From a virus (taxonomy: Duplodnaviria > Caudoviricetes), in the IMG/VR virus record IMGVR_UViG_3300001525_000609, positions 18,623-82,622 of that record: a DNA stretch of 64,000 bases. One strand, given 5' to 3'. Made by a program: the position numbers and the translations under genes. Positions within the stretch are counted from its first letter, which is position 1. Each line of letters begins with the position of its first letter. Positions 1,444-36,048 of the stretch are shown here, in pieces. The notes below the pieces were generated by a model. The model did no database searches, was not told the DNA's origin, and saw only the letters and a program-made list of their open reading frames with translations.

Positions 1444-1639
1444 CTGAAAAGACCTCTTGCAAAGACATACGGTCTGACGCATCAACAGGTTTGCGACCTC
1501 TTGAAAATGCGGTCGCAGCAAATGCGCATAAACGGCAATCTACGTCATCGCACGGGCATCCTGTCACGATGCAAGACTGGCTTATCCTTCCCTTGACCAC
1601 GCGCACCTCACGATAGTAATCTTTCGGAGATATGCTCAT
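1427..1639 (-). CDS. Small Cys-rich protein
   Basis: CIVTGCPCDDVDCRLC; ATGA overlap with the upstream gene. Confidence 0.55.
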   Translation of the reverse strand: MSISPKDYYREVRVVKGRISQSCIVTGCPCDDVDCRLCAFAATAFSRGRKPVDASDRMSLQEVFSDDQDR

Positions 1640-2229
1640 TCCAATTCCTCTCTAAAATAGTCTGATTTATTCTTGGACGGTGTTTCATCATCTTTATCAG
1701 GCACATCACGCCCCACTTCCTTACGGGTCTCACGATCTATAGGGATACGCATTATTTCGCAATCCTCTAATTCATCCCAATCTACACCTATATCGAGATC
1801 TACATTGTCTTCGTTCGATTCTTCAGGCTCTATGGTCACAAATTTCGTTCTTCCAGGGGCAGGTATCGCAACGATATCCTTCATATGCTTCACAGGCGCA
1901 TAGTCCAGAGACTCTAATTCCCTATCTTCTGCATCGACAATATTGTTCTGGGGGGAGAGATCGCCTTGATCAAAATCAAGGCGGTCCTCATCACCCTCTC
2001 TTTCAAAATACTCGGATAATTCACTGTTGGCCACAGCATCGCTTTTCAGATAGCCTGCTTCATCACGAACGGGAGTGATCATCACATCCACGTATGACCC
2101 GGGCAAGATGTTCAACGCACGGCATGGGCGCGTAACACGAATGATCAGGTCATGCTCCTGCTGTTTAGCTACCCTTGCCCTGAACTTCATCGATGCCATA
2201 ATCTGCCTTGGGGGAACGGTTGCACTCAC
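1636..2229 (-). CDS. AbrB/SpoVT-like DNA-binding domain plus acidic tail
   Basis: N-terminal KFRARVAKQQEHDLIIRVTRPCRALNILPGSYVDVMI fits the swapped-hairpin pattern. Confidence 0.55.
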   Translation of the reverse strand: MSATVPPRQIMASMKFRARVAKQQEHDLIIRVTRPCRALNILPGSYVDVMITPVRDEAGYLKSDAVANSELSEYFEREGDEDRLDFDQGDLSPQNNIVDAEDRELESLDYAPVKHMKDIVAIPAPGRTKFVTIEPEESNEDNVDLDIGVDWDELEDCEIMRIPIDRETRKEVGRDVPDKDDETPSKNKSDYFREELE

Positions 2230-2669
2230 TTCTTGTCGGTAGACCCGAGTCCGCCATTGCGATCCCGGGTCGGTACGATTTCATCTTCAAGGAACAGGAA
2301 TGGTACGAACATTCCCTGCATGTATGCCTTGCCTTTGGGTATGCATATGTCTTCATCAGCGCACAGGGAGCATTGTATCTCGTCGCGATAATCCTGGTCG
2401 ATGATGCCGACAGTATCGGCCAACCTGACTTTGTATTTGAACCCCAAGCCCGAACGGGGATACAGCATAAGAGCCCAACTTGTAATCTCGTCCCTCCAAC
2501 GGGGAGTGCAGTTGATCCTGAGCCTCTCTGTGCCGTCCAAAGATACACCTGTACCGAATGTTGTCCACTCACCTGCTTTAAGATGTATATCTGCTGGGGC
2601 AAAGAAATCATAGCACGCGCTTCCTTTAGTTGCCCTTGCAGGCATCTCGACTCCTTCCTTAGTCTTCAT
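2226..2669 (-). CDS. dut: Trimeric dUTPase
   Basis: Motifs SACYD, PRSGLG, GIIDQDYR, Q.MF and RNGGLGST. Confidence 0.95.
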   Translation of the reverse strand: MKTKEGVEMPARATKGSACYDFFAPADIHLKAGEWTTFGTGVSLDGTERLRINCTPRWRDEITSWALMLYPRSGLGFKYKVRLADTVGIIDQDYRDEIQCSLCADEDICIPKGKAYMQGMFVPFLFLEDEIVPTRDRNGGLGSTDKK

Positions 2670-3348
2670 CTGATCTCTCCTCCTGTTCTTCTCCTAAATC
2701 ATCATCCAACACAGATTGGCCTTCCTCGGCATCGATCTTGGCTTTAGCTTCCGCGATCATCTCCACAAGGTCCTGATCCATCGCGGCGACATTGTAATAT
2801 TTAGCTGGGGGCTTCTTCCTCAGAGCTTTCATAACGAGTTCATTGAGCTTACGTGCGGTTGCAGGATCGAGCCTGTTATAGGGGGTGGTGATGCACACGC
2901 CCCCTACCCCGTCACCCATTATAGCGCCATTGAACAGCGTGCCTGCGAATTGCAAAGGCTCGACATCCCATGTATACTTGTAAATGACGTCCAGCGACAC
3001 ATCTACGTCGTCATGCCATACATCTTTCTTGTACAGCTTCCCATTGACGATCTTATCTTCAAGCTGTGCCGCGATAATCTTGCTCTTGACCCCCTCATCC
3101 GTGAAGCAAGGATGCAATGCGAGCTTAATGCCCAACTCTGCATTCTTGACAGCGAACCCCGCCTCCATGAGGCCTATGACATCTCCGCCCCAATAGCCCC
3201 CTTCAGGGTATTCGCACGGGGCGCGTATAGACATGATCACTTCATCGCCATCCAGCAGGCCGAGCATCTTGCATTCGTGACCGATGCTCACCCTGTATTG
3301 ACCGTGGCCATTATCATGAATCTTTTTCACTAATCCTACTACAATCAT
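2659..3348 (-). CDS. AbrB-like domain fused to a Tad2-like paralogous domain
   Basis: N-terminal VKKIHDNGHGQYRVSIGHECKMLGLLDGDEVIMSI. Central G.DVIGLMEAG...KDVW...DVIYKYTW matches the genes at 4412 and 4629. Confidence 0.55.
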   Translation of the reverse strand: MIVVGLVKKIHDNGHGQYRVSIGHECKMLGLLDGDEVIMSIRAPCEYPEGGYWGGDVIGLMEAGFAVKNAELGIKLALHPCFTDEGVKSKIIAAQLEDKIVNGKLYKKDVWHDDVDVSLDVIYKYTWDVEPLQFAGTLFNGAIMGDGVGGVCITTPYNRLDPATARKLNELVMKALRKKPPAKYYNVAAMDQDLVEMIAEAKAKIDAEEGQSVLDDDLGEEQEERSDED

Positions 3349-4409
3349 TCATTATCCCCCTTGAAATCAAGAACACACTGTGTGGTTTCCTTCTTCCACG
3401 TCTTGTCGATGAACATCGCCCTGAATATCGCCGTCCAGCAAGGGACTGCACTGGAAGCCGCAGCTACACGATACAACATGCCGTCAGACAGCCCCGCATC
3501 TTTTACCTTCTGGAACTCCACGTCGGTGTACCCCTGGAGCCTCCAGAATTCAAGAGGTGAGAACCGTCTGATCCTCAAGTTCCCTCTGACTGCATCTTCC
3601 ACATTGTGCCTGTCGCTGACAGTGACAGAGATATGGCGGTCATAATCAGGATCATCGGGTAAAGGCTGTATCAGGAACGGCCCTACGGGGCGACGGTCTG
3701 AATAGACTGTTATGAAAGAGCTGAATTTAGTAGCATCAGTGGGCATCCATTCGGGAGTCAACACATCATGGTATCTCCTGAACTTCATCTCACGACCTGC
3801 GATCTCCTCATACGACAACCACAAGTCTTTCACTGCGTCTTCAGATTCAAGAACGTCTTTCAATATCCTGCCATCTGGACAAGGCTCAGGGAATATGAAC
3901 TCCCCGTGATGCAGCGATGCTACCATGAACCATCTTCTGCGGTTCTGAGGCACCCCATAGTCGCTGGTATTCAAGACTTCGTACGATATCTCATACCCGA
4001 GGTCCTTTATCTCTTTGATAAAGAGATTGAAGAATCTGGAATATCTGCTGCTTAAGAGAAAAGGCGTAGACTCTGCACAGATGTACTCCGGAAGATTGCC
4101 CTCGGACCTCGCACTCTCTAACAGATCTATAACGAACCATGCAAGCGATGCTTTAGTATCCCTGCCCTTGCGATTGAGAGGAGCGATCTTCAACGTCGGC
4201 CAATCGAAGAACAGAAGATCTGCACTAGGCATCGACGTCATATCTGATACGTCATCATAGCTCAAGACATCGCCATGCAATGCCTTGTATCCTTCGAGTA
4301 TCTGCGGATACGACTCGCATACGATATCATCATGTTCGACCCCTGCACGATCGAGTGCAGTCTCGGCACCGCCTATCCCTGAGAACACATCAAATAGCTT
4401 CAGCGTCAT
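3345..4409 (-). CDS. C5 DNA cytosine methyltransferase homologue, predicted catalytically inactive
   Basis: Motif I FSGIGG, motif VIII YGVPQNRRR and motif IX RRFSPLEFWRLQGY are present. Motif IV reads WPT instead of FPC, and motif VI reads EST instead of ENV. Confidence 0.85.
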   Translation of the reverse strand: MTLKLFDVFSGIGGAETALDRAGVEHDDIVCESYPQILEGYKALHGDVLSYDDVSDMTSMPSADLLFFDWPTLKIAPLNRKGRDTKASLAWFVIDLLESARSEGNLPEYICAESTPFLLSSRYSRFFNLFIKEIKDLGYEISYEVLNTSDYGVPQNRRRWFMVASLHHGEFIFPEPCPDGRILKDVLESEDAVKDLWLSYEEIAGREMKFRRYHDVLTPEWMPTDATKFSSFITVYSDRRPVGPFLIQPLPDDPDYDRHISVTVSDRHNVEDAVRGNLRIRRFSPLEFWRLQGYTDVEFQKVKDAGLSDGMLYRVAAASSAVPCWTAIFRAMFIDKTWKKETTQCVLDFKGDNE

Positions 4410-4411
4410 GT

Positions 4412-4645
4412 TCACTCCATATTGTCTGCCGCATTCCATTCGTGATTATACAACGCATTGACATCAAGGCTGATATCTGCCCATTGGGTGACATATTCCG
4501 TAGGCAGAGGTGCCGAGCCGGTATGCATGAATTGCAGGTGGTTAGAAGTTCTGTTCAGCTTGATGACGATATCATGGTCTCTTATTCTAGATGAGAGAAT
4601 ATGGCCATCTTCGAGCAGCTTCAATGCATCAGAGCCTCTGGGCAT
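4412..4645 (-). CDS. Stand-alone Tad2-like paralogous domain protein
   Basis: GSDALKLLEDGHILSS...QWADISLDVNALYNHEW aligns with the domains in 2659 and 4629. Confidence 0.5.
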   Translation of the reverse strand: MPRGSDALKLLEDGHILSSRIRDHDIVIKLNRTSNHLQFMHTGSAPLPTEYVTQWADISLDVNALYNHEWNAADNME

Positions 4646-5231
4646 CGTACACCCCCTTGTCGTTAGCCGCATCGTAGAACCAGCCCATATCATTGAGTTT
4701 GAGCATCTGGTATAGAATCGTGTCTCCGGTTATATCGCAAGTGCCTTCTTCCTTTAAAGTCTCGATCGCGTCATTCCTCAGAGCCATATATGCGCGTGTG
4801 TTGAAGTGAAGCAGATCTTCTACTTCATCGCATACCACCCAGGGCGTATTGTAGATAGAGTCGATGACATCGACCGATGTCAACGCCCAAACATCTTTGG
4901 GGATAAGATCGGTCGGGACTGTGAGGGCTACGTATATGCTCTTGCTGGTATACTTTTCATCCTGTTTGACAAGGCGCATAGGGTCCAGTGCCAAGTACAC
5001 GGGGTCAGAGCCATCATGCGGGACAGATTTCATAATGTGTCCAGACTCCAGATAGCTAAGCACAGTGGCTCCGCAGACTTCCTTGTTCTTCATCTCCTCA
5101 GAGGTGTCGAGCGATATGTAGACTGAATTATGCTCTTTTAAGCCCAATTGCTTCGCCTCTGACGACAAGACGACAACGAGCGAGTTGCCTTGTTTTTTCA
5201 GTACCTTGCGGATAGCTTCAAATCCCTTCAT
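4629..5231 (-). CDS. AbrB-like regulator fused to Tad2-like domain(s)
   Basis: IRKVLKKQGNSLVVVLSSEAKQLGLKEHNSVYISL is a clear AbrB/MazE pattern, followed by GATVLSYLESGHIMKS...KDVW...DSIYNTPW. Confidence 0.65.
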   Translation of the reverse strand: MKGFEAIRKVLKKQGNSLVVVLSSEAKQLGLKEHNSVYISLDTSEEMKNKEVCGATVLSYLESGHIMKSVPHDGSDPVYLALDPMRLVKQDEKYTSKSIYVALTVPTDLIPKDVWALTSVDVIDSIYNTPWVVCDEVEDLLHFNTRAYMALRNDAIETLKEEGTCDITGDTILYQMLKLNDMGWFYDAANDKGVYDAQRL

Positions 5232-5308
5232 AGTATTACTTTGTATTACTCATATATATTTATGAGTTTCGAAAATAAATATTGAATTGAAATACAATGT
5301 AATTGAGG

Positions 5309-5381
5309 TAGTCCTGCTCGGATTCGAACCGAGGTCGCCTGATCCAAAGTCAGGAACGATTGACCGCTACGCCACAGGACT
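5309..5381 (-). tRNA. tRNA-Gln(UUG), no encoded CCA
   Basis: AGTCCTG/CAGGACT acceptor stem with A1-U72, CCTGA-CTTTGGA-TCAGG anticodon arm, GGTTCGAATCC T-loop. Confidence 0.95.
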
Positions 5382-5800: not shown

Positions 5801-6067
5801 TCATTCCTCCAAGTCGTAATCCTCTTCCCAGGATATATTGCATGCGTCTTCGGGCATGCCCGTGTTCTCGCAGAAGCGCTTCCACGCTTTCTCCATGCGC
5901 TCCTCTCCCGTGTCCCCGGAGAGGAACAGGTCCGCTTCCTCTATGAGGTCTCTGAACTCTTTGGCGAGCCCTGCGACCTGCGTGTTGACAAGCTTGTTCT
6001 CGTCCCTTCTGAGGGCATAGAGCCAATCGCCTATCATGTATGTCCATTCCAATGTTCCACCGCTCAT
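5801..6067 (-). CDS. Conserved phage hypothetical protein
   Basis: MSGG...SGDTGEE pattern; ATGA overlap with the upstream gene. Confidence 0.6.
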   Translation of the reverse strand: MSGGTLEWTYMIGDWLYALRRDENKLVNTQVAGLAKEFRDLIEEADLFLSGDTGEERMEKAWKRFCENTGMPEDACNISWEEDYDLEE

Positions 6068-6723
6068 TCTTCCACCTTGTACCAATCGTCCGCCCATACG
6101 TCCTCAGGAGTTATGCCCGAGGATATGTACTGGTCGGTGTACACGCTCAGATAGCCGTGCTTGTCGCGCATCTCCGCGTCCGCAGGCCATGCCTTGCGCC
6201 TGAACTTCTCCGGGCTGATGCCCGATTCGATTCCTTTGAGCACCCAGCCGAACTGCCCCTCCTCGATGCAGTCGCGCACGCAGAGCCAATCGTCCGCGAC
6301 CTCGTCGGCAAGGGTCCACGAGTCGCGCAGATAGCCCCCGACGGCGGGAGACCTGCCCTTGAGCGGGCCGTCCCAGAACAGGGCATAGCCCTTCGGCCAT
6401 GCCTCGCGCCTGAAGTATATGGGCTCGGTGCCCTTGACGAGGTCCAGCGTGCTCTTGACTATCCGCAAGGTGTAGTGCGGCAGGGTCTCGGGCATCGCCA
6501 CCCAATCGTCTGCCAGCATATCGGTCTGGCTGGCGAGCCAGGGCACCCTGTCGAAGGTGCCGTCTTCATGCTCTATCTCCATGTAGATATACGGCTTGGT
6601 CATCTTGCTGAACTCTGTGGGGCGCTGGAGCTTTATCCATTGGCATTTGCCGTTCCAGCCCATGCGGTAGAAACGGGGCTCGCTCCATGTGTAGAATCCT
6701 TCCAGCACATCTGAGAAGTACAT
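6064..6723 (-). CDS. tad2: Tandem three-domain Tad2/DUF2829-family protein
   Basis: Domain 1 has RMGWNGK...PYIYM...VPWLASQTDMLADDW. Domains 2 and 3 have FRREAW...VADDW and FRRKAW...DVWADDW. Confidence 0.8.
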   Translation of the reverse strand: MYFSDVLEGFYTWSEPRFYRMGWNGKCQWIKLQRPTEFSKMTKPYIYMEIEHEDGTFDRVPWLASQTDMLADDWVAMPETLPHYTLRIVKSTLDLVKGTEPIYFRREAWPKGYALFWDGPLKGRSPAVGGYLRDSWTLADEVADDWLCVRDCIEEGQFGWVLKGIESGISPEKFRRKAWPADAEMRDKHGYLSVYTDQYISSGITPEDVWADDWYKVEE

Positions 6724-6727
6724 CCCA

Positions 6728-7126
6728 TCAGCTCCCGTACTTCGACAGTATCGCATCGATCTGCGCTTGCACGTTCGACATGTCCGACTGAATCGAGTTG
6801 GAGAGATAGGCTTCCATGATCATGCAAGCCAGCATGCAGATCAGCGTTGCTGCCACAAAGGTTCCGACAGTCCAGATACGAGAATCGACATCACGTTTCT
6901 TGACAACAGTCCATCTTCCACTAATGATGGTCTCTTCGCGTCCTGTGTATGAAATGTACAGCCATGATGAGAGCAGGGCAAGACCGAAGCCTATTACGGC
7001 ACATGTCGCCAGCCAATAGGGCAATGCCGTCAAGTCTATGTGGTCTATGTTATACTGGAATTGAGCGAGCTGTCCTCTCAGCTCGCTCAGCCGCAGCCCG
7101 TCCTCATACGTTATGTTCATGTCCAT
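6728..7126 (-). CDS. Two-TM membrane protein with coiled ends
   Basis: Two hydrophobic segments flanked by heptad-like regions. Confidence 0.6.
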   Translation of the reverse strand: MDMNITYEDGLRLSELRGQLAQFQYNIDHIDLTALPYWLATCAVIGFGLALLSSWLYISYTGREETIISGRWTVVKKRDVDSRIWTVGTFVAATLICMLACMIMEAYLSNSIQSDMSNVQAQIDAILSKYGS

Positions 7127-9540: not shown

Positions 9541-9640
9541 TTGCAACCTATATCAGTTGCAAAAACAAGTATGTTATTGGCGTATATTATACTTTCGTAA
9601 GATAGTGTATAATAATACTACAAAGTAATACAGAATATGA
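9541..9640. promoter_or_regulatory. AT-rich promoter with inverted repeat
   Basis: TTGCAAC-N8-GTTGCAA (9541-9562) and TATAATAATA tracts. Confidence 0.5.
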
Positions 9641-9877: not shown

Positions 9878-10594
9878 TCACAGGTTGCCTGCGCCCTCGT
9901 ATGCGTCGCGCAGCTCTTTGAGCGTCGGCTCCTTGCCGCACGTCTTCTTCTCCGGGCAATAGCCCAGGGCCCCGCACTGCGGGCCGAAGAGCTTGTCCAG
10001 CGTGTAGATGCCGTAGTGATGGAGCGCCATCTTGACGAGCTTGCTCATGCAGACCGCGACGCCTCCGATCTCCCCCTGCGCCCTGTTGCACAGCCTGAGC
10101 TGGCAGATATGGGCGCATTCGCGGAGGTTCATGCTGACGACCATGTTGGTGCAGCATGCGTTGGGCAGGACGGCCCGGGCATCCTCCATGGGAATGTCTT
10201 GCAGCTTCGTCATCGCCTCATACAGCTCTGAGGTCTGCGACATGTAGGTGTCGAAGACCTCCTCCATGCCCCCTTCGTCCGCCCACCTTATCGACTCGGG
10301 CGTGGCATAGGCGAAGCCGTCCATGCTCACGTAACGCTGGCTCTGCTGGCTGACCGTTATCAGGCGATGCCTGACGAGCTGGTGCGAGCATACCCTGGAG
10401 ATGCCCTCGATGCTGAAAGCGACGTGGATATGCTCCAGTATGGAGAGATGCCCGGACAGACACGCCGCTTCCAGCGCCCTTGTCGAGTCGTTCATCTCGG
10501 GCATCTCGGCGGACGTGCAGCACCTCGCCGCCAGGTCCGCCGCATAGGGTGGGCTCATGTAGAGCATCTTGACGACCATGCCTCTGCCGCCCAT
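9878..10594 (-). CDS. thyX: FAD-dependent thymidylate synthase
   Basis: GHLSILEH, QLVRHRLITVSQQSQRY, ARAVLPN, MNLRE and RLC.RAQ.EI motifs. Confidence 0.95.
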   Translation of the reverse strand: MGGRGMVVKMLYMSPPYAADLAARCCTSAEMPEMNDSTRALEAACLSGHLSILEHIHVAFSIEGISRVCSHQLVRHRLITVSQQSQRYVSMDGFAYATPESIRWADEGGMEEVFDTYMSQTSELYEAMTKLQDIPMEDARAVLPNACCTNMVVSMNLRECAHICQLRLCNRAQGEIGGVAVCMSKLVKMALHHYGIYTLDKLFGPQCGALGYCPEKKTCGKEPTLKELRDAYEGAGNL

Positions 10595-10595
10595 C

Positions 10596-10787
10596 TTACC
10601 ACTTCCTTATCAGGCCGCTATCGCAACCGAAGAACTGGCAGAACTCTTCATACGCAGTCTCCCAAGAATGCCAGGTGTAATCGCTCACACGGCTGTCTTC
10701 GGGGTCATGCCAAGGGTCATCCCAGCCGGCACACCATTTGTTCTCCATATATGGGTTCGGGAATAAGAGATCGAGCAGGCGGCTCAT
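10596..10787 (-). CDS. Small Trp-rich protein
   Basis: ATGA overlap; 63 aa. Confidence 0.5.
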   Translation of the reverse strand: MSRLLDLLFPNPYMENKWCAGWDDPWHDPEDSRVSDYTWHSWETAYEEFCQFFGCDSGLIRKW

Positions 10788-11173
10788 TCTTCCACCTCCA
10801 CCCACATGCCCTCTATCTCCCCAGCATACAAGGGAGGCTCCACCCACACGCTGTCCTCGTATGAGTACACGAGCCCATACTCGGCATCTATCCTGTATAT
10901 GTCCTTGGACCCGACAGGGCTCATGACCTTGCCCTTGGCCATCATGCCGATGGCCTGGCAGAACGTGTGCTTCTCTGCAGGCGTGCTTGCCATAGCCTCC
11001 TCGTCCCATATCAGCTCGTGAGTGGTGTCGCCGCCGAGCCAGTCGCCGAAGTCGCTGCCCATGACCTGCATGGCGCCGCCTTCGAGCCTGTATCCGACGT
11101 CGTCCTGCCAGACCTCCTTCCCTGCGAGCAGAGCCTCCATCTTCTCTTTCGCTGTGTTCGCTTCCGTTATCAT
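10784..11173 (-). CDS. Two-repeat protein with a remote Tad2-like signature
   Basis: MEALLAGKEVW... and TFCQAIGMMAKGKVM...EIEGMW. Confidence 0.5.
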   Translation of the reverse strand: MITEANTAKEKMEALLAGKEVWQDDVGYRLEGGAMQVMGSDFGDWLGGDTTHELIWDEEAMASTPAEKHTFCQAIGMMAKGKVMSPVGSKDIYRIDAEYGLVYSYEDSVWVEPPLYAGEIEGMWVEVEE

Positions 11174-17480: not shown

Positions 17481-17592
17481 GTCATTCCTCTTTTTAAGCT
17501 TAATGAACTCTTGTAGAGTTCTTGTATTACAATATAATACACATCTGATATATAGGTTTCGATGATGACCACTGATGCGACGGGATAGGGGA

Positions 17593-17689: not shown

Positions 17690-18045
17690 AAATATATCCG
17701 AATAGTTGAACGATTGCTCAAGTGTTGTCGGGGCGGTCTCTTAATCTTAGACAGAAGTGGTAATGTTGGTCGGTATAGGAAAAATAGAGTGCCCCTGTCC
17801 GTCCCGAGGACGGTTTTCAACACGTCTAATGTAACAAAAGCGGCATTACACGACCATTACAATGGATGTATCTTCCAATACTGTTTATGCCCGAAATAAT
17901 CCATGATATCAGTATACTGGTCACGATTTTTGTGTTTTAGGCTCTCCGAAACCAATAGAGCGCGATCGTACCCTCTTGCCCTAAATCGCCATTACGAAAT
18001 TCGTAGAAAACTCTACGAAACCTCGCAAACAGTATTTAAAGAGCC

Positions 18046-18412
18046 TTACAAAATTACATTACCCTTACATATCCGATGTAATGCATATTTTTGTACAACT
18101 ATTTATAGGGTTTAAATAGTCCCTATTTAAACCCATAGTATCTATTTCTAAGAATTACAGGAATTACATCATTTAAAAAGATTAGAAAAAAATAATGAAA
18201 AATAGAGGGATCGTGAGAAAACTCCCTCTTATACGCGCGTACACGCGCATGCGCGCACGCGCCTTCTAGTCTTTCCGACGAAAATATGTAATTTTGTAAT
18301 TTATACAACCTCGTTGTATATTTTTTTATAAGTCTTTCGCAATTGCTTATAAACTCAAACCTCGAATTAACCCCTGTTTAGCCTTACATTGAAATGTAAC
18401 GCAATGTAATGC
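18046..18412. repeat. Origin-like element A: ATTACA iterons, AT-rich core, inverted TGTAAT iterons
   Basis: Repeated (A)ATTACA at left and TGTAA(T) at right; aligns with 35711-35938. Origin function is inferred. Confidence 0.65.
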
Positions 18413-19018
18413 TGTCATTTTCGGCCCCTCTGTTCTCCGCCTCCGCCCGTGCTCGTGAAAATCCCCGATTTTGCCCTACATTTCTTAGACCTCTGCTGCT
18501 TGCGTCTGTCCTCGTCGCCGCGAGTGCCGAACATCACGATCCCGGGATCGGACAGGGGGCGGCGACGGCACGCGACGGCACCTGCGACGCTCTTTTCCGT
18601 CATCGCTCCCTTTCTTGTTCACATGCGTGCATGTACGCAACCGCACGCTCCTGTGCCCATACTTGCGTAAGCTCGCGCATGCGCACGTGCCCGAGCGCAG
18701 AGCGCACGAGGAACAGGCGGCTGCGTCGCAGCCGCTCCCCTGATAACGATTCCCCCAAAGGCGCACCGATCGGTGCGTCGCAGGGCGCAGGTGTGCACGC
18801 ACGCGCATGTGCGTAGCCCTGTGTTCGCTTGAAATCTCCGCAGACCCATCTCCTTTCGCGTATAATGGACTTCACGCCTTGAAAGGTGTCCAAGGTCGTC
18901 TAAACAATCTTCGTGGCTTTTATGCCCCTTTCTGTGCGTCTTATCAAAGAACCTCTCGATAAGGCCGTCCGCCCCGCCGAAGCGGGGCGTAATTGGTTTG
19001 ATGGCTCCGATCCCGGGA

Positions 19019-35675: not shown

Positions 35676-35710
35676 TCTTTCCTTAGACTCTAATTTAAGA
35701 ATACCTTAAT

Positions 35711-35938
35711 CATTACAAAATTACATTGCATTACATTTTCGATGTAACGCAGGTTTTTGTACAATCTTATATAGTATTTATAAAGTCCCTATATAAGGAA
35801 TCCTATACAAATCTAAGAATTACATGAATTACATCATTTCAAAACTTTTAGAAAAAAATGAAGGGGAGAGCTTGTGCAAAGAATTTCTCATTTTTTTAGA
35901 ACTTTATAGGAAAACATGTAATTCATGTAATTTTGTAA
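35711..35938. repeat. Origin-like element B, diverged direct copy of A
   Basis: Shares TTACAAAATTACATT, GATGTAA, TTTTTGTACAA, AGTCCCTAT, CTAAGAATTACA.GAATTACATCATTT, TTAGAAAAAAAT and TGTAATTTTGTAA in the same order. Confidence 0.75.
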
Positions 35939-36048
35939 GGCAGTACAATCTGTCATTTATATACACGAGTCCATCAATGAACAATAAGATGCATTGGTTG
36001 GATCGCCATTCGGGAAAATTACTATAACGCCCGATCCGATGCTCTATC

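What the first reader, a model, noticed from the sequence alone, without database searches (positions are those of the whole stretch)
2659..5231. AbrB DNA-binding domains fused to Tad2-like domains: possible signal-sensing viral regulators
Seen: three clustered genes share one domain. 4412: GSDALKLLEDGHILSS...WADISLDVNALYNHEW. 4629: GATVLSYLESGHIMKS...KDVW...DSIYNTPW. 2659: GGDVIGLMEAG...KDVW...DVIYKYTW. In two of them it follows an AbrB/MazE-type N-terminus. Known: the (F/G)xxAlxxLxxG...W frame resembles Tad2/DUF2829, which sequesters gcADPR and cyclic dinucleotides; a canonical Tad2 lies 0.8 kb away. Inference: these could be transcription factors that read host immune second messengers and retune viral transcription. 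I do not know of such a described fusion. The Tad2 link here is remote.
Basis: partly seen in the sequence, partly recalled or inferred. Interest (0 to 1): 0.82.

Follow-up and report, generated by a model that had tools for sequence, protein, structure and literature searches.

The report
AbrB-like regulators carrying a Tad2-fold domain
A gut archaeal virus encodes two probable DNA-binding regulators, plus a short stand-alone copy, that share a domain folded like the phage "Tad2" immune-signal sponge; half of Tad2's signal-binding residues are missing, so sensing of host immune signals stays an untested idea.

Summary
Three minus-strand genes share one ~80-residue domain ("X"): A-X1 (4629-5231, 200 aa), A-X2 (2659-3348, 229 aa) and X-solo (true start 4645, 77 aa). 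A canonical Tad2 gene (6064-6756, PF11195 E 3.5e-15) lies 0.83 kb away.

**Pocket residues.** X keeps Tad2's W-x5-D motif but lacks the GWN pocket loop.

**N-termini.** They look MazE/AbrB-like (GNS…GLKEGDEV), but only at sub-threshold scores.

**Distribution.** The family occurs in seven related Methanomassiliicoccales-type viruses. In five of them X-solo overlaps the end of A-X1.

**Best reading (about 0.45).** These are viral transcription regulators in which X is an oligomerisation or effector module, and X-solo is a SinI-like partner lacking the DNA-binding domain. Ligand sensing (about 0.2) is neither excluded nor supported.

The architecture is new; its function is untested.

The parts
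4629..5231 (-). A-X1, 200 aa. It has three parts: a MazE/AbrB-like N-domain (res 1-45, nt 5097-5231), Tad2-fold domain X (res 50-135, nt 4827-5084), and a conserved helical tail (res 140-200, ...LNDMGWFYDAANDKGVYDAQRL).
4412..4645 (-). X-solo, 77 aa: domain X alone with no DNA-binding domain. The ATG at 4643-4645 follows a GGGGGTG Shine-Dalgarno-like site and overlaps the last 17 nt of A-X1.
3345..4439 (-). C5 DNA methyltransferase homologue lying between the paralogues. Motif IV reads PT instead of PC in all three viruses that carry it. Its stop overlaps the A-X2 start (ATGA).
   Evidence: PF00145 E 2e-28. Alignment with the L005 and L003 orthologues shows FFDWPT invariant. Start and stop context.
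2659..3348 (-). A-X2, 229 aa: an AbrB-like N-domain (nt 3214-3348), domain X (res 50-132, nt 2953-3201), a Gly-rich linker and an acidic tail. It is found only where the methyltransferase homologue is present.
   Evidence: Orthologues: P0004 (L003) and L005:11885-12583.
5232..5306 (-). A-X1 promoter region, read on the minus strand. It holds a TACATTGTA palindrome (5293-5301), a TATA-like ATAAATATATAT (about 5252-5263), and a tandem AGTAATAC-AA-AGTAATAC (5233-5250) that ends one base before the ATG. This is a candidate operator.
   Evidence: The same AGTAATAC word occurs twice, flanking the TATA box, upstream of the L010 orthologue. Inverted repeats GTCTTACA/TGTAAGAC sit at the same place in L008 and L007.
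5307..5381 (-). tRNA-Gln (UUG) immediately upstream of the A-X1 promoter. The same arrangement is seen in L005, L003 and L010.
   Evidence: ARAGORN; upstream sequences.
6064..6756 (-). Context gene: a canonical Tad2/DUF2829 protein. The first domain is res 12-86. By eye it is followed by two diverged repeats ending in ADDW.
   Evidence: PF11195 E 3.5e-15. PDB Tad2/AcrIIA7 hits. The X profile aligns weakly to its third repeat (E 1.6e-3 in a 3-sequence test).
9619..9631 (-). Second exact copy of the 13-mer GTATTACTTTGTA. It lies in another AT-rich promoter island, in the opposite orientation to the copy at 5233-5245.

Best explanation
A-X1 and A-X2 are virus-encoded transcription regulators of the early and nucleotide-metabolism gene row of a Methanomassiliicoccales-type tailed virus.

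- **N-domain.** Each has a small N-terminal swapped-hairpin-type (MazE/AbrB/SpoVT-like) domain. This domain would dimerise and bind promoter DNA. For A-X1 the most likely target is the repeated AGTAATAC / TACA-N-TGTA words around its own TATA box, that is, autoregulation.
- **Middle domain X.** It has the Tad2 / phage-812 gp164-N fold. It serves as the higher-order assembly or effector-binding module, the role that the C-terminal domain plays in AbrB and the GAF domain plays in SpoVT.
- **X-solo.** This is a paralogue of domain X alone, translationally coupled to A-X1. It would join or cap the same interface, as SinI does with SinR, and so tune A-X1 activity.

What is shown: the shared domain, its Tad2-like fold, the gene coupling, the conservation of the pair, and operator-like repeats at the promoter. 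What is inferred: DNA binding, oligomerisation through X, and the A-X1/X-solo contact.
For: - **Shared domain and family:**
- **Independent model:** the A-X1 model repeats the ranking. The ESM Atlas gives PF11195-bearing clusters as top feature hits (0.78-0.79, leads only) and TM 0.62 to a DUF2829 cluster.
- **Both structural relatives are obligate oligomers:** Tad2 is a tetramer (bioRxiv 10.1101/2023.05.01.538930). The phage 812 neck decoration proteins form homodimers; chain S is probably gp164, an assignment made from that paper's description and not confirmed (PMC12886913).
- **N-domain:** it carries the GNS...GLKEGDEV motif. Seven of the 20 best PDB hits of its profile are AbrB/MazE/SpoVT proteins aligned at their N-termini, at E 0.08-2. 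The AF2 topology is beta-beta-alpha-beta. An Atlas structure row is a cluster that is 50% PF04014.
- **Coupled pair:** A-X1 and an overlapping X-solo occur together in 5 of 7 related viruses.
- **Promoter repeats:** they are conserved in kind across diverged viruses.
- **Pocket loop:** the loop that carries W25/N26 in Tad2 is variable in length and sequence in X.
Against: - No DNA-binding test was possible. PF04014 is far below its cut-off (best E 0.045-0.18) and is not found in the virus genome.
- Oligomerisation of X and the A-X1/X-solo contact were never modelled, because the complex predictor could not be reached.
- K112, D113 and W115 are invariant in both A-X families, and W-x5-D is kept. 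They lie where Tad2 has its ligand-contacting P-W73-x5-D79, which could equally mark a ligand site.
- X-solo is missing in two of the seven viruses (L003, vir335), so it is not essential to A-X1.
- The 13-mer copies lie in AT-rich islands, where chance matches are more likely than whole-window shuffles suggest.
Confidence: 0.45

Rival explanations
1. This is the first reader's idea: signal-sensing regulators. Domain X keeps a Tad2-type nucleotide pocket at an oligomer interface. Binding of a host immune second messenger (cADPR isomers, His-ADPR, cyclic mono-, di- or oligonucleotides) would change DNA binding by the AbrB-like domain. X-solo would be a co-expressed mini-sponge or decoy.
For: - Tad2-like fold.
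- W-x5-D-x8-9-W is kept where Tad2 has ligand-contacting W73...D79...W85, and K112-D113 before the Trp are invariant in both A-X families.
- The virus and its relatives carry canonical Tad2 genes next to these genes. In vir335 the Tad2-kinase fusion is the gene directly upstream, which implies that hosts signal with such molecules.
- Tad2 proteins are known to evolve new specificities and to use two different interface pockets (bioRxiv 10.1101/2025.08.24.671296; 10.1101/2023.11.15.567273).
- SpoVT is a precedent for an AbrB-type domain joined to a ligand-type (GAF) domain (own knowledge).
Against: - The GWNGKG loop, invariant in 48 PF11195 proteins and contributing W25/N26 of the pocket, has no counterpart in X. 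That loop varies in length and sequence (PHDG / AELG / IRDHD / EIN).
- vir335 replaces both Trp by Phe and loses the Asp.
- The nearest structure is a ligand-free virion decoration protein.
- There is no significant sequence similarity to Tad2.
- X-solo lacks the K-D pair.
Confidence: 0.2
2. These are anti-defence or host-takeover proteins that do not bind DNA. The N-terminal beta domain is only a dimerisation module. Domain X binds a host or viral protein, as gp164 binds neck proteins. X-solo is a second inhibitor of the same kind.
For: - They sit in an early gene row beside Tad2, a dUTPase and a methyltransferase-like gene.
- The fold is shared with a protein-binding decoration domain and with many small uncharacterised phage proteins in BFVD.
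- The family is tiny and fast-evolving, as anti-defence genes often are.
- The AbrB assignment is sub-threshold.
Against: - The GNS...GLKEGDEV pattern and the best PDB hits are those of DNA-binding MazE/AbrB domains.
- Operator-like repeats are conserved at the A-X1 promoter.
- The architecture of N-terminal DNA-binding domain plus C-terminal multimerisation domain is the standard one for this superfamily (own knowledge).
Confidence: 0.2
3. A toxin-antitoxin-like pair: A-X1 is a MazE-type antitoxin and autorepressor, and the overlapping downstream gene X-solo is its toxin.
For: The best PDB hits of the N-domain are "addiction module antidote" chains. The gene order and 17-nt overlap resemble type II TA operons.
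Against: - X-solo is a paralogue of A-X1's own middle domain, with a Tad2-like fold and not a known toxin fold.
- It is absent from two orthologous loci while A-X1 stays.
- A-X2 has no such partner.
Confidence: 0.05

Closest known systems
Tad2 (Thoeris anti-defence 2; DUF2829, PF11195): SPO1 gp34.65, ModTad2, HgmTad2/AcrIIA7, SptTad2
   Different: No significant sequence similarity. The GWNGKG pocket loop is absent. The domain is fused to a DNA-binding-type domain and a helical tail rather than standing alone. The oligomeric state and any ligand are unknown.
Phage 812 neck protein, PDB 8qkh chain S (probably gp164, the stopper decoration protein) and its Herelleviridae relatives
   Different: gp164 is a virion structural protein with a C-terminal beta-barrel. 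The genes here lie in the early or regulatory row, lack that barrel, and carry an AbrB-like domain. The identity of chain S was inferred from the paper's description, not checked.
SpoVT and AbrB of Bacillus subtilis (swapped-hairpin regulators with a C-terminal multimerisation or GAF domain)
   Same: Same layout: a ~45-residue swapped-hairpin-type N-domain followed by a second domain that builds the tetramer or could bind an effector.
   Different: Here the second domain has the Tad2 fold, not GAF or the AbrB C-terminal domain. The N-domain similarity is sub-threshold. This comparison rests on my own knowledge of those proteins, not on a tool result.
SinR/SinI of Bacillus subtilis (a regulator plus a small antagonist homologous to its multimerisation domain)
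   Same: A full regulator and an adjacent short paralogue that consists only of the non-DNA-binding domain. This is what the pair would work like.
   Different: The folds are unrelated. The gene order and translational coupling differ. No interaction has been shown here.
Tad2-fold modules attached to Rha/Ant regulators of D6-like phage-plasmids
   Same: As described in those notes, a shrunken Tad2-fold domain is fused to a regulator in one copy and encoded as a translationally coupled stand-alone gene in the other. It lacks part of the signal-binding residues, and a normal Tad2 is present elsewhere in the same genome.
   Different: The host domain differs (bacteria), as do the regulator family (Rha/Ant) and the control (c4 antisense RNA). 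These are AI notes that I did not test, so they are a lead only.

Membership tests
Tad2 / DUF2829 (PF11195) | Match to the Pfam model above its gathering score | tested here: not met
   None of the three proteins has any Pfam family at E <= 1. The domain profile finds no DUF2829 protein among 1.84e9 representatives and no Tad2 chain in the PDB sequences.
Tad2 / DUF2829 (PF11195) | Profile-profile similarity to PF11195 proteins | tested here: inconclusive
   hhalign probability is 1.3-4.1% with P 0.01-0.04, but the alignment is collinear over 69 columns. In the column-shuffle control (-M 50) the real alignment scored 16.4 against a shuffle mean of 11.3 (sd 2.3); 2 of 150 shuffles reached 18.2. 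The X HMM against the virus's own triple Tad2 gives E 4.5e-4 to 1.6e-3 in a 3-sequence test.
Tad2 / DUF2829 (PF11195) | Fold: N-terminal helix, five-stranded antiparallel sheet, short helix before the last strand | tested here: met
Tad2 / DUF2829 (PF11195) | GWN(GKG) loop between beta1 and beta2 (W25/N26 of SPO1 Tad2 contact gcADPR) | tested here: not met
   The loop is invariant in 48 PF11195 proteins. In X the aligned loop reads PHDG, PEDG, AELG, IRDHD, EIN or ALN, with no Trp or Asn conserved. Contact residues are from bioRxiv 10.1101/2023.05.01.538930.
Tad2 / DUF2829 (PF11195) | P-W-x5-D-x5-W C-terminal motif (W73, D79 contact the ligand) | tested here: inconclusive
   W-x5-D-x8/9-W is present in all A-X1 and X-solo orthologues except vir335, which has F...F and no Asp. 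In A-X2 the Asp is shifted by one residue. The equivalence rests on the hhalign alignment, not on superposed coordinates.
Tad2 / DUF2829 (PF11195) | Homotetramer with ligand pockets at protomer interfaces; sequestration of an immune signal | not tested
   The complex predictor could not be reached on eight attempts. Ligand binding needs bench work.
AbrB/MazE/SpoVT swapped-hairpin domain (PF04014) | Match to the Pfam model above its gathering score (24.7 bits) | tested here: not met
   The best values are E 0.045 and 0.18 (12 bits) for single members. A six-frame search of the virus record finds nothing at E <= 10.
AbrB/MazE/SpoVT swapped-hairpin domain (PF04014) | N-terminal ~45 residues with beta-beta-alpha-beta topology and the (G)NS...lGl.eGD.V.i pattern | tested here: inconclusive
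   The motif is present in all A-X1 orthologues. Seven of the 20 best PDB hits are AbrB/MazE/SpoVT-type chains aligned at their N-termini, but at E 0.08-2. The AF2 topology fits at pLDDT 52-68. An Atlas structure row is a cluster that is 50% PF04014, TM 0.56.
AbrB/MazE/SpoVT swapped-hairpin domain (PF04014) | Obligate dimer that binds DNA | not testable with these tools
   This needs EMSA or footprinting and a dimer structure.
Herelleviridae gp164-type stopper decoration protein | N-terminal globular domain plus C-terminal beta-barrel, encoded as a virion component | tested here: not met
SinR/SinI-type regulator-antagonist pair (works-like comparison only) | The small protein is homologous to the regulator's non-DNA-binding domain and is encoded next to it | tested here: met
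   X-solo vs A-X1 domain X gives E 5e-5. The genes overlap in five viruses.
SinR/SinI-type regulator-antagonist pair (works-like comparison only) | Heteromer formation that blocks DNA binding | not tested
   The complex predictor could not be reached; this also needs a pull-down and EMSA.

The most novel reading that the evidence does not exclude
A-X1 and A-X2 are transcription factors whose Tad2-fold domain still binds a host immune nucleotide signal at an oligomer interface. The virus would then read the host's alarm molecule and re-time its own gene expression. The co-translated X-solo, and the neighbouring canonical Tad2, would set the free-signal level that the regulators see. With the Tad2-fold modules on Rha/Ant regulators noted earlier in this scan, this would make "sponge fold turned sensor" a recurrent design in viruses of both bacteria and archaea.
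Probability: 0.15. Interest if true: 0.85.

Novelty: new variant of a known kind. Interest (0 to 1): 0.55.

Why it matters
Tad2 is known only as a stand-alone sponge that soaks up bacterial immune signals. Here its fold is built into probable DNA-binding regulators of an archaeal virus, and it recurs as a coupled stand-alone copy. There are two possibilities:

- The domain only assembles the regulator. Then the Tad2 fold is a general viral oligomerisation module, and fold-based anti-defence annotation of such domains would be wrong.
- The domain binds a signal. Then this would be a virus that senses host immunity rather than merely blocking it.

Either way the locus gives a small, clean set of proteins (77 to 229 aa) and a defined promoter with which to test this in vitro. 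It also adds evidence that Methanomassiliicoccales viruses invest heavily in Tad2-type genes.

Tried and rejected
- **Pfam and PHROGs** on the three proteins: nothing usable.
- **Domain profile against PDB sequences:** only a chance HDAC hit.
- **Foldseek on the full-length A-X1 model:** no meaningful rows; the model is poor over residues 84-119.
- **ESM Atlas:** scores are below 0.9 and were used as leads only.
- **The search for related loci:** both single-protein scans of IMG/VR (A-X1, A-X2) and the first genome scan found nothing.
- **Complex prediction** (A-X1 domain X with X-solo): unreachable on eight attempts. There is no result of any kind.
- **GTAATAC heptamer:** not enriched in the window as a whole, 8 copies against about 8 expected.
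- **ATTACA/TGTAAT words:** they cluster at 18.0-18.4 kb and 35.7-36.0 kb, but only one copy lies at the A-X1 promoter. I therefore dropped the idea that the A-X proteins are the iteron binders.
- **The plus-strand 51-aa ORF at 9637** after the second 13-mer: rejected as a gene, because it overlaps a minus-strand ORF and runs against the gene orientation.
Full report
**Setting.** The window is bases 18623-82622 of an 82.6-kb IMG/VR virus record judged 98% complete. The only DNA-level relative in the phage collection is Caudoviricetes sp. vir335, an 83-kb virus assigned to Methanomassiliicoccales, which has the same gene order around its dUTPase.

The finding lies in a row of minus-strand genes next to the head-protein gene:
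- HNH endonuclease, 471-914
- two unknown genes
- a 197-aa acidic protein, 1636-2229
- dUTPase, 2226-2669
- A-X2, 2659-3348
- a C5-methyltransferase homologue, 3345-4439
- X-solo, 4412-4645
- A-X1, 4629-5231
- tRNA-Gln, 5307-5381
- small genes
- a canonical Tad2 protein, 6064-6756

.

**The observation.** The three proteins share one domain of about 80 residues. BLASTP gives E 1e-7, 5e-5 and 0.07 for the three pairs. Alignments give the invariant columns G54, E62, G64, W115 and W131 in A-X1 numbering. The 93-aa ORF should be read from its third Met: the ATG at 4643-4645 is preceded by GGGGGTG. This gives 77 aa, the length called in related viruses, and an overlap of 17 nt with the end of A-X1. 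A-X2 starts in an ATGA overlap with the methyltransferase homologue. The Tad2 gene 0.83 kb away is confirmed: PF11195 E 3.5e-15, with hits to HgmTad2/AcrIIA7, SptTad2 and SPO1 gp34.65.

**How rare the family is.** Word-indexed searches of 5.8 billion proteins found only near-identical copies and one 49-61% relative of each A-X protein. A full HMMER scan of 1.84 billion representatives with the domain profile added only two more A-X1 orthologues. No DUF2829 protein appeared.

With context look-ups, the phage record and one genome scan, the family is now known from seven related viruses:
- the window
- L005
- L003
- L007
- L008
- vir335 (L009)
- L010, an 83.7-kb contig binned as "Bacteroidaceae" that is plainly a relative of this virus

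A-X1 is present in all seven. X-solo follows it, overlapping, in five (window, L005, L007, L008, L010). A-X2 occurs only in the three viruses that also carry the methyltransferase homologue.

**Is domain X Tad2-like?**

By sequence, no:
- There is no Pfam, PHROG or PDB-sequence hit.
- hhalign against 48-109 PF11195 proteins gives probability 1-4% and P 0.01-0.04.
- In the column-shuffle control, run with -M 50, the real alignment scored 16.4 against a shuffle mean of 11.3 (sd 2.3). Two of 150 shuffles reached 18.2, the score of the first hhalign run.
- The alignment is nevertheless collinear over the whole domain.
- In a three-sequence test, the X profile aligns weakly (E 4.5e-4 and 1.6e-3) to the third, diverged repeat of the virus's own triple Tad2 (...ITPEDVWADDW).

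By structure, yes:
- An AlphaFold2 model of X-solo, built from ten family sequences only, has pLDDT 74 and pTM 0.63. Its topology is helix, three long strands, short helix, strand, helix, strand.
- The independent, poorer model of full-length A-X1 (pLDDT 64.7) gives the same three chains at ranks 1-3.
- The ESM Atlas lists PF11195-bearing clusters as its three nearest feature neighbours (0.78-0.79, leads only) and a 100% DUF2829 cluster at TM 0.62.
- Foldseek E-values never reach 1e-3.

I conclude that X has the Tad2 fold and is probably a very remote relative, but it is not a member of PF11195 by that family's own criteria.

**The closest structure is not a sponge.** Chain S of 8qkh is a 148-residue neck protein of Staphylococcus phage 812. 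[quoted passage not shown] I could not confirm the chain assignment. BFVD gives the same family in other Herelleviridae as best hits, at probability 1.0 and TM 0.65-0.73. The fold is therefore used both for ligand sequestration at oligomer interfaces and for plain protein-protein contacts.

**Pocket residues.** In SPO1 Tad2 the gcADPR pocket is built by W25, N26, W73 and D79, with T78, I63 and T65 (bioRxiv 10.1101/2023.05.01.538930). In 48 PF11195 proteins, R-x-GWNGKG and PWLASQTD-x-LA-x-DW are invariant.

- **C-terminal motif.** Domain X keeps the second element in relaxed form, W-x5-D-x8/9-W. This holds in all A-X1 and X-solo orthologues except vir335, where both Trp are Phe and the Asp is gone; in A-X2 the Asp is shifted by one residue.
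- **GWN loop.** It has no counterpart. The aligned loop differs in length and sequence between paralogues.
- **K-D pair.** K112 and D113, just before W115, are invariant in both A-X families but absent from X-solo.

Half of the known pocket is therefore missing. Tad2 proteins do use two different interface pockets and have evolved several specificities, so ligand binding is not excluded, but nothing here argues for it positively.

**The N-terminal domain.** A-X1 orthologues share ...RK....GNSLvV.ls.EA+.mGLKEGDEVfIt..., which I recognise as the pattern of MazE/AbrB-type swapped-hairpin domains.

- **Pfam.** Its model sees this only at E 0.045-0.18 and not at all in a six-frame search of the virus.
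- **PDB hits.** A profile of the five A-X1 N-termini gives three "addiction module antidote" chains as best hits. Three AbrB-family regulators and an AbrB/MazE/SpoVT protein are also listed. All are aligned at their N-termini, but at E 0.08-2.
- **Topology.** The AlphaFold topology (beta 7-14, beta 17-22, helix 24-28, then a strand) fits at low confidence.

I regard the assignment as likely, about 0.7, but not shown.

**Cis elements.** A-X1 is the first gene after the tRNA. Its upstream region, read on the minus strand, holds three elements:
- a TACATTGTA palindrome
- a TATA-like ATAAATATATAT
- a tandem AGTAATAC-AA-AGTAATAC that ends one base before the ATG

It recurs exactly at 9619-9631 and, with two mismatches, at 17528-17540. 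All three lie in AT-rich promoter islands.

In the diverged virus L010 the word AAGTAATACAT occurs twice, flanking the TATA box of the A-X1 orthologue. In L008 and L007 an inverted repeat GTCTTACA/TGTAAGAC lies just upstream of the TATA box. Operator-like repeats at this promoter are thus conserved in kind, which fits autoregulation. This parallels the shared regulatory sequences of early and anti-defence genes described for other archaeal viruses (PMC11065993).

**Mechanism.** The best-supported reading is that A-X1 and A-X2 are AbrB/MazE-type transcription regulators. The Tad2-fold domain is the second, assembly or effector module, as the C-terminal domain is in AbrB and the GAF domain is in SpoVT (own knowledge). 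X-solo, a paralogue of that module alone and translationally coupled to A-X1, would enter the same interface and modulate it, as SinI does with SinR.

- **Shown:** the shared domain, its fold, the gene coupling, the conservation of the pair, and the promoter repeats.
- **Inferred:** DNA binding, oligomerisation through X, and the heteromer.

I tried eight times to test the A-X1/X-solo contact with the complex predictor, but the service could not be reached. That step is open.

**Novelty.** No paper in the library mentions DUF2829 together with AbrB, and the Tad2 papers read describe stand-alone sponges. Earlier unchecked notes of this scan describe Tad2-fold modules in D6-like phage-plasmids. 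There the module is fused to Rha/Ant regulators and also encoded as a coupled stand-alone gene, again lacking part of the binding residues. I did not test those notes. If they hold, the present case is the archaeal-virus counterpart of a recurring design. I class it as a new variant of known kinds (an AbrB-type regulator with an accessory domain, and a Tad2-fold domain), of moderate interest. The interest would be high only if ligand sensing were demonstrated.

Noticed in passing
window 3345-4439 (-); L005:10824-11888; L003:2455-3507: The C5 DNA methyltransferase homologue has FFDWPT where motif IV should read PC, so the catalytic Cys is replaced by Thr. This is invariant in three viruses at 58-92% identity, so a probably inactive enzyme is being kept. 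A-X2 is ATGA-coupled to it and occurs only where it occurs.
   Followed up: partly
window 1636-2229 (-): The 197-aa protein has an N-terminus (MKFRARVAKQQEHDLIIRVTRPCRALNILPGSYVDVMI) that aligns with the AbrB-like N-domains of A-X1 and A-X2, followed by a long acidic region. It may be a third swapped-hairpin protein in the row. There is no significant hit.
   Followed up: partly
L009 (vir335, BK063680.1) 10305-11147 (-): The gene annotated as nucleotide kinase (phrog_236) begins with a canonical Tad2 domain (MDFGDAVRAMK...PWVATQADMLADDW). It lies directly upstream of the A-X1 orthologue vir335_00005. This is a Tad2-kinase fusion.
   Followed up: no
L010 = CAVKKO010000001.1, 83.7 kb: This contig is deposited in a "Bacteroidaceae bacterium" bin. 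It carries the same tRNA, A-X1, X-solo, dUTPase, HNH and head-protein order as this archaeal virus, so it is almost certainly a mis-binned viral genome.
   Followed up: partly
window 5307-5381 (-): tRNA-Gln (anticodon UUG) is the only tRNA in the window. Its 3' part is conserved directly upstream of the A-X1 promoter in L005, L003 and L010.
   Followed up: partly
window 9619-9631 and 17528-17540: There is a second exact copy and a third near copy of the 13-mer GTATTACTTTGTA. All copies lie in three of the ten AT-rich (<30% GC) islands of the window.
   Followed up: partly
window 18031-18420 and 35700-35980: ATTACA/TGTAAT hexamers cluster here, with 6-7 per 300 nt against about 24 expected in the whole window. 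This agrees with another first-reader note on origin-like iteron elements.
   Followed up: partly
window 6064-6756 (-): In the Tad2 protein, Pfam sees only the first domain. By eye two further diverged repeats follow (FRREAW...ADDW and FRRKAW...ADDW). The third repeat is the part that aligns best with domain X.
   Followed up: partly
phage collection: NC_092586.1 / BK063676.1 (Caudoviricetes sp. vir215): A second, unrelated 37.7-kb Methanomassiliicoccales virus also encodes a Tad2 homologue (46% identity). Tad2-type genes therefore seem common in viruses of this host order.
   Followed up: no
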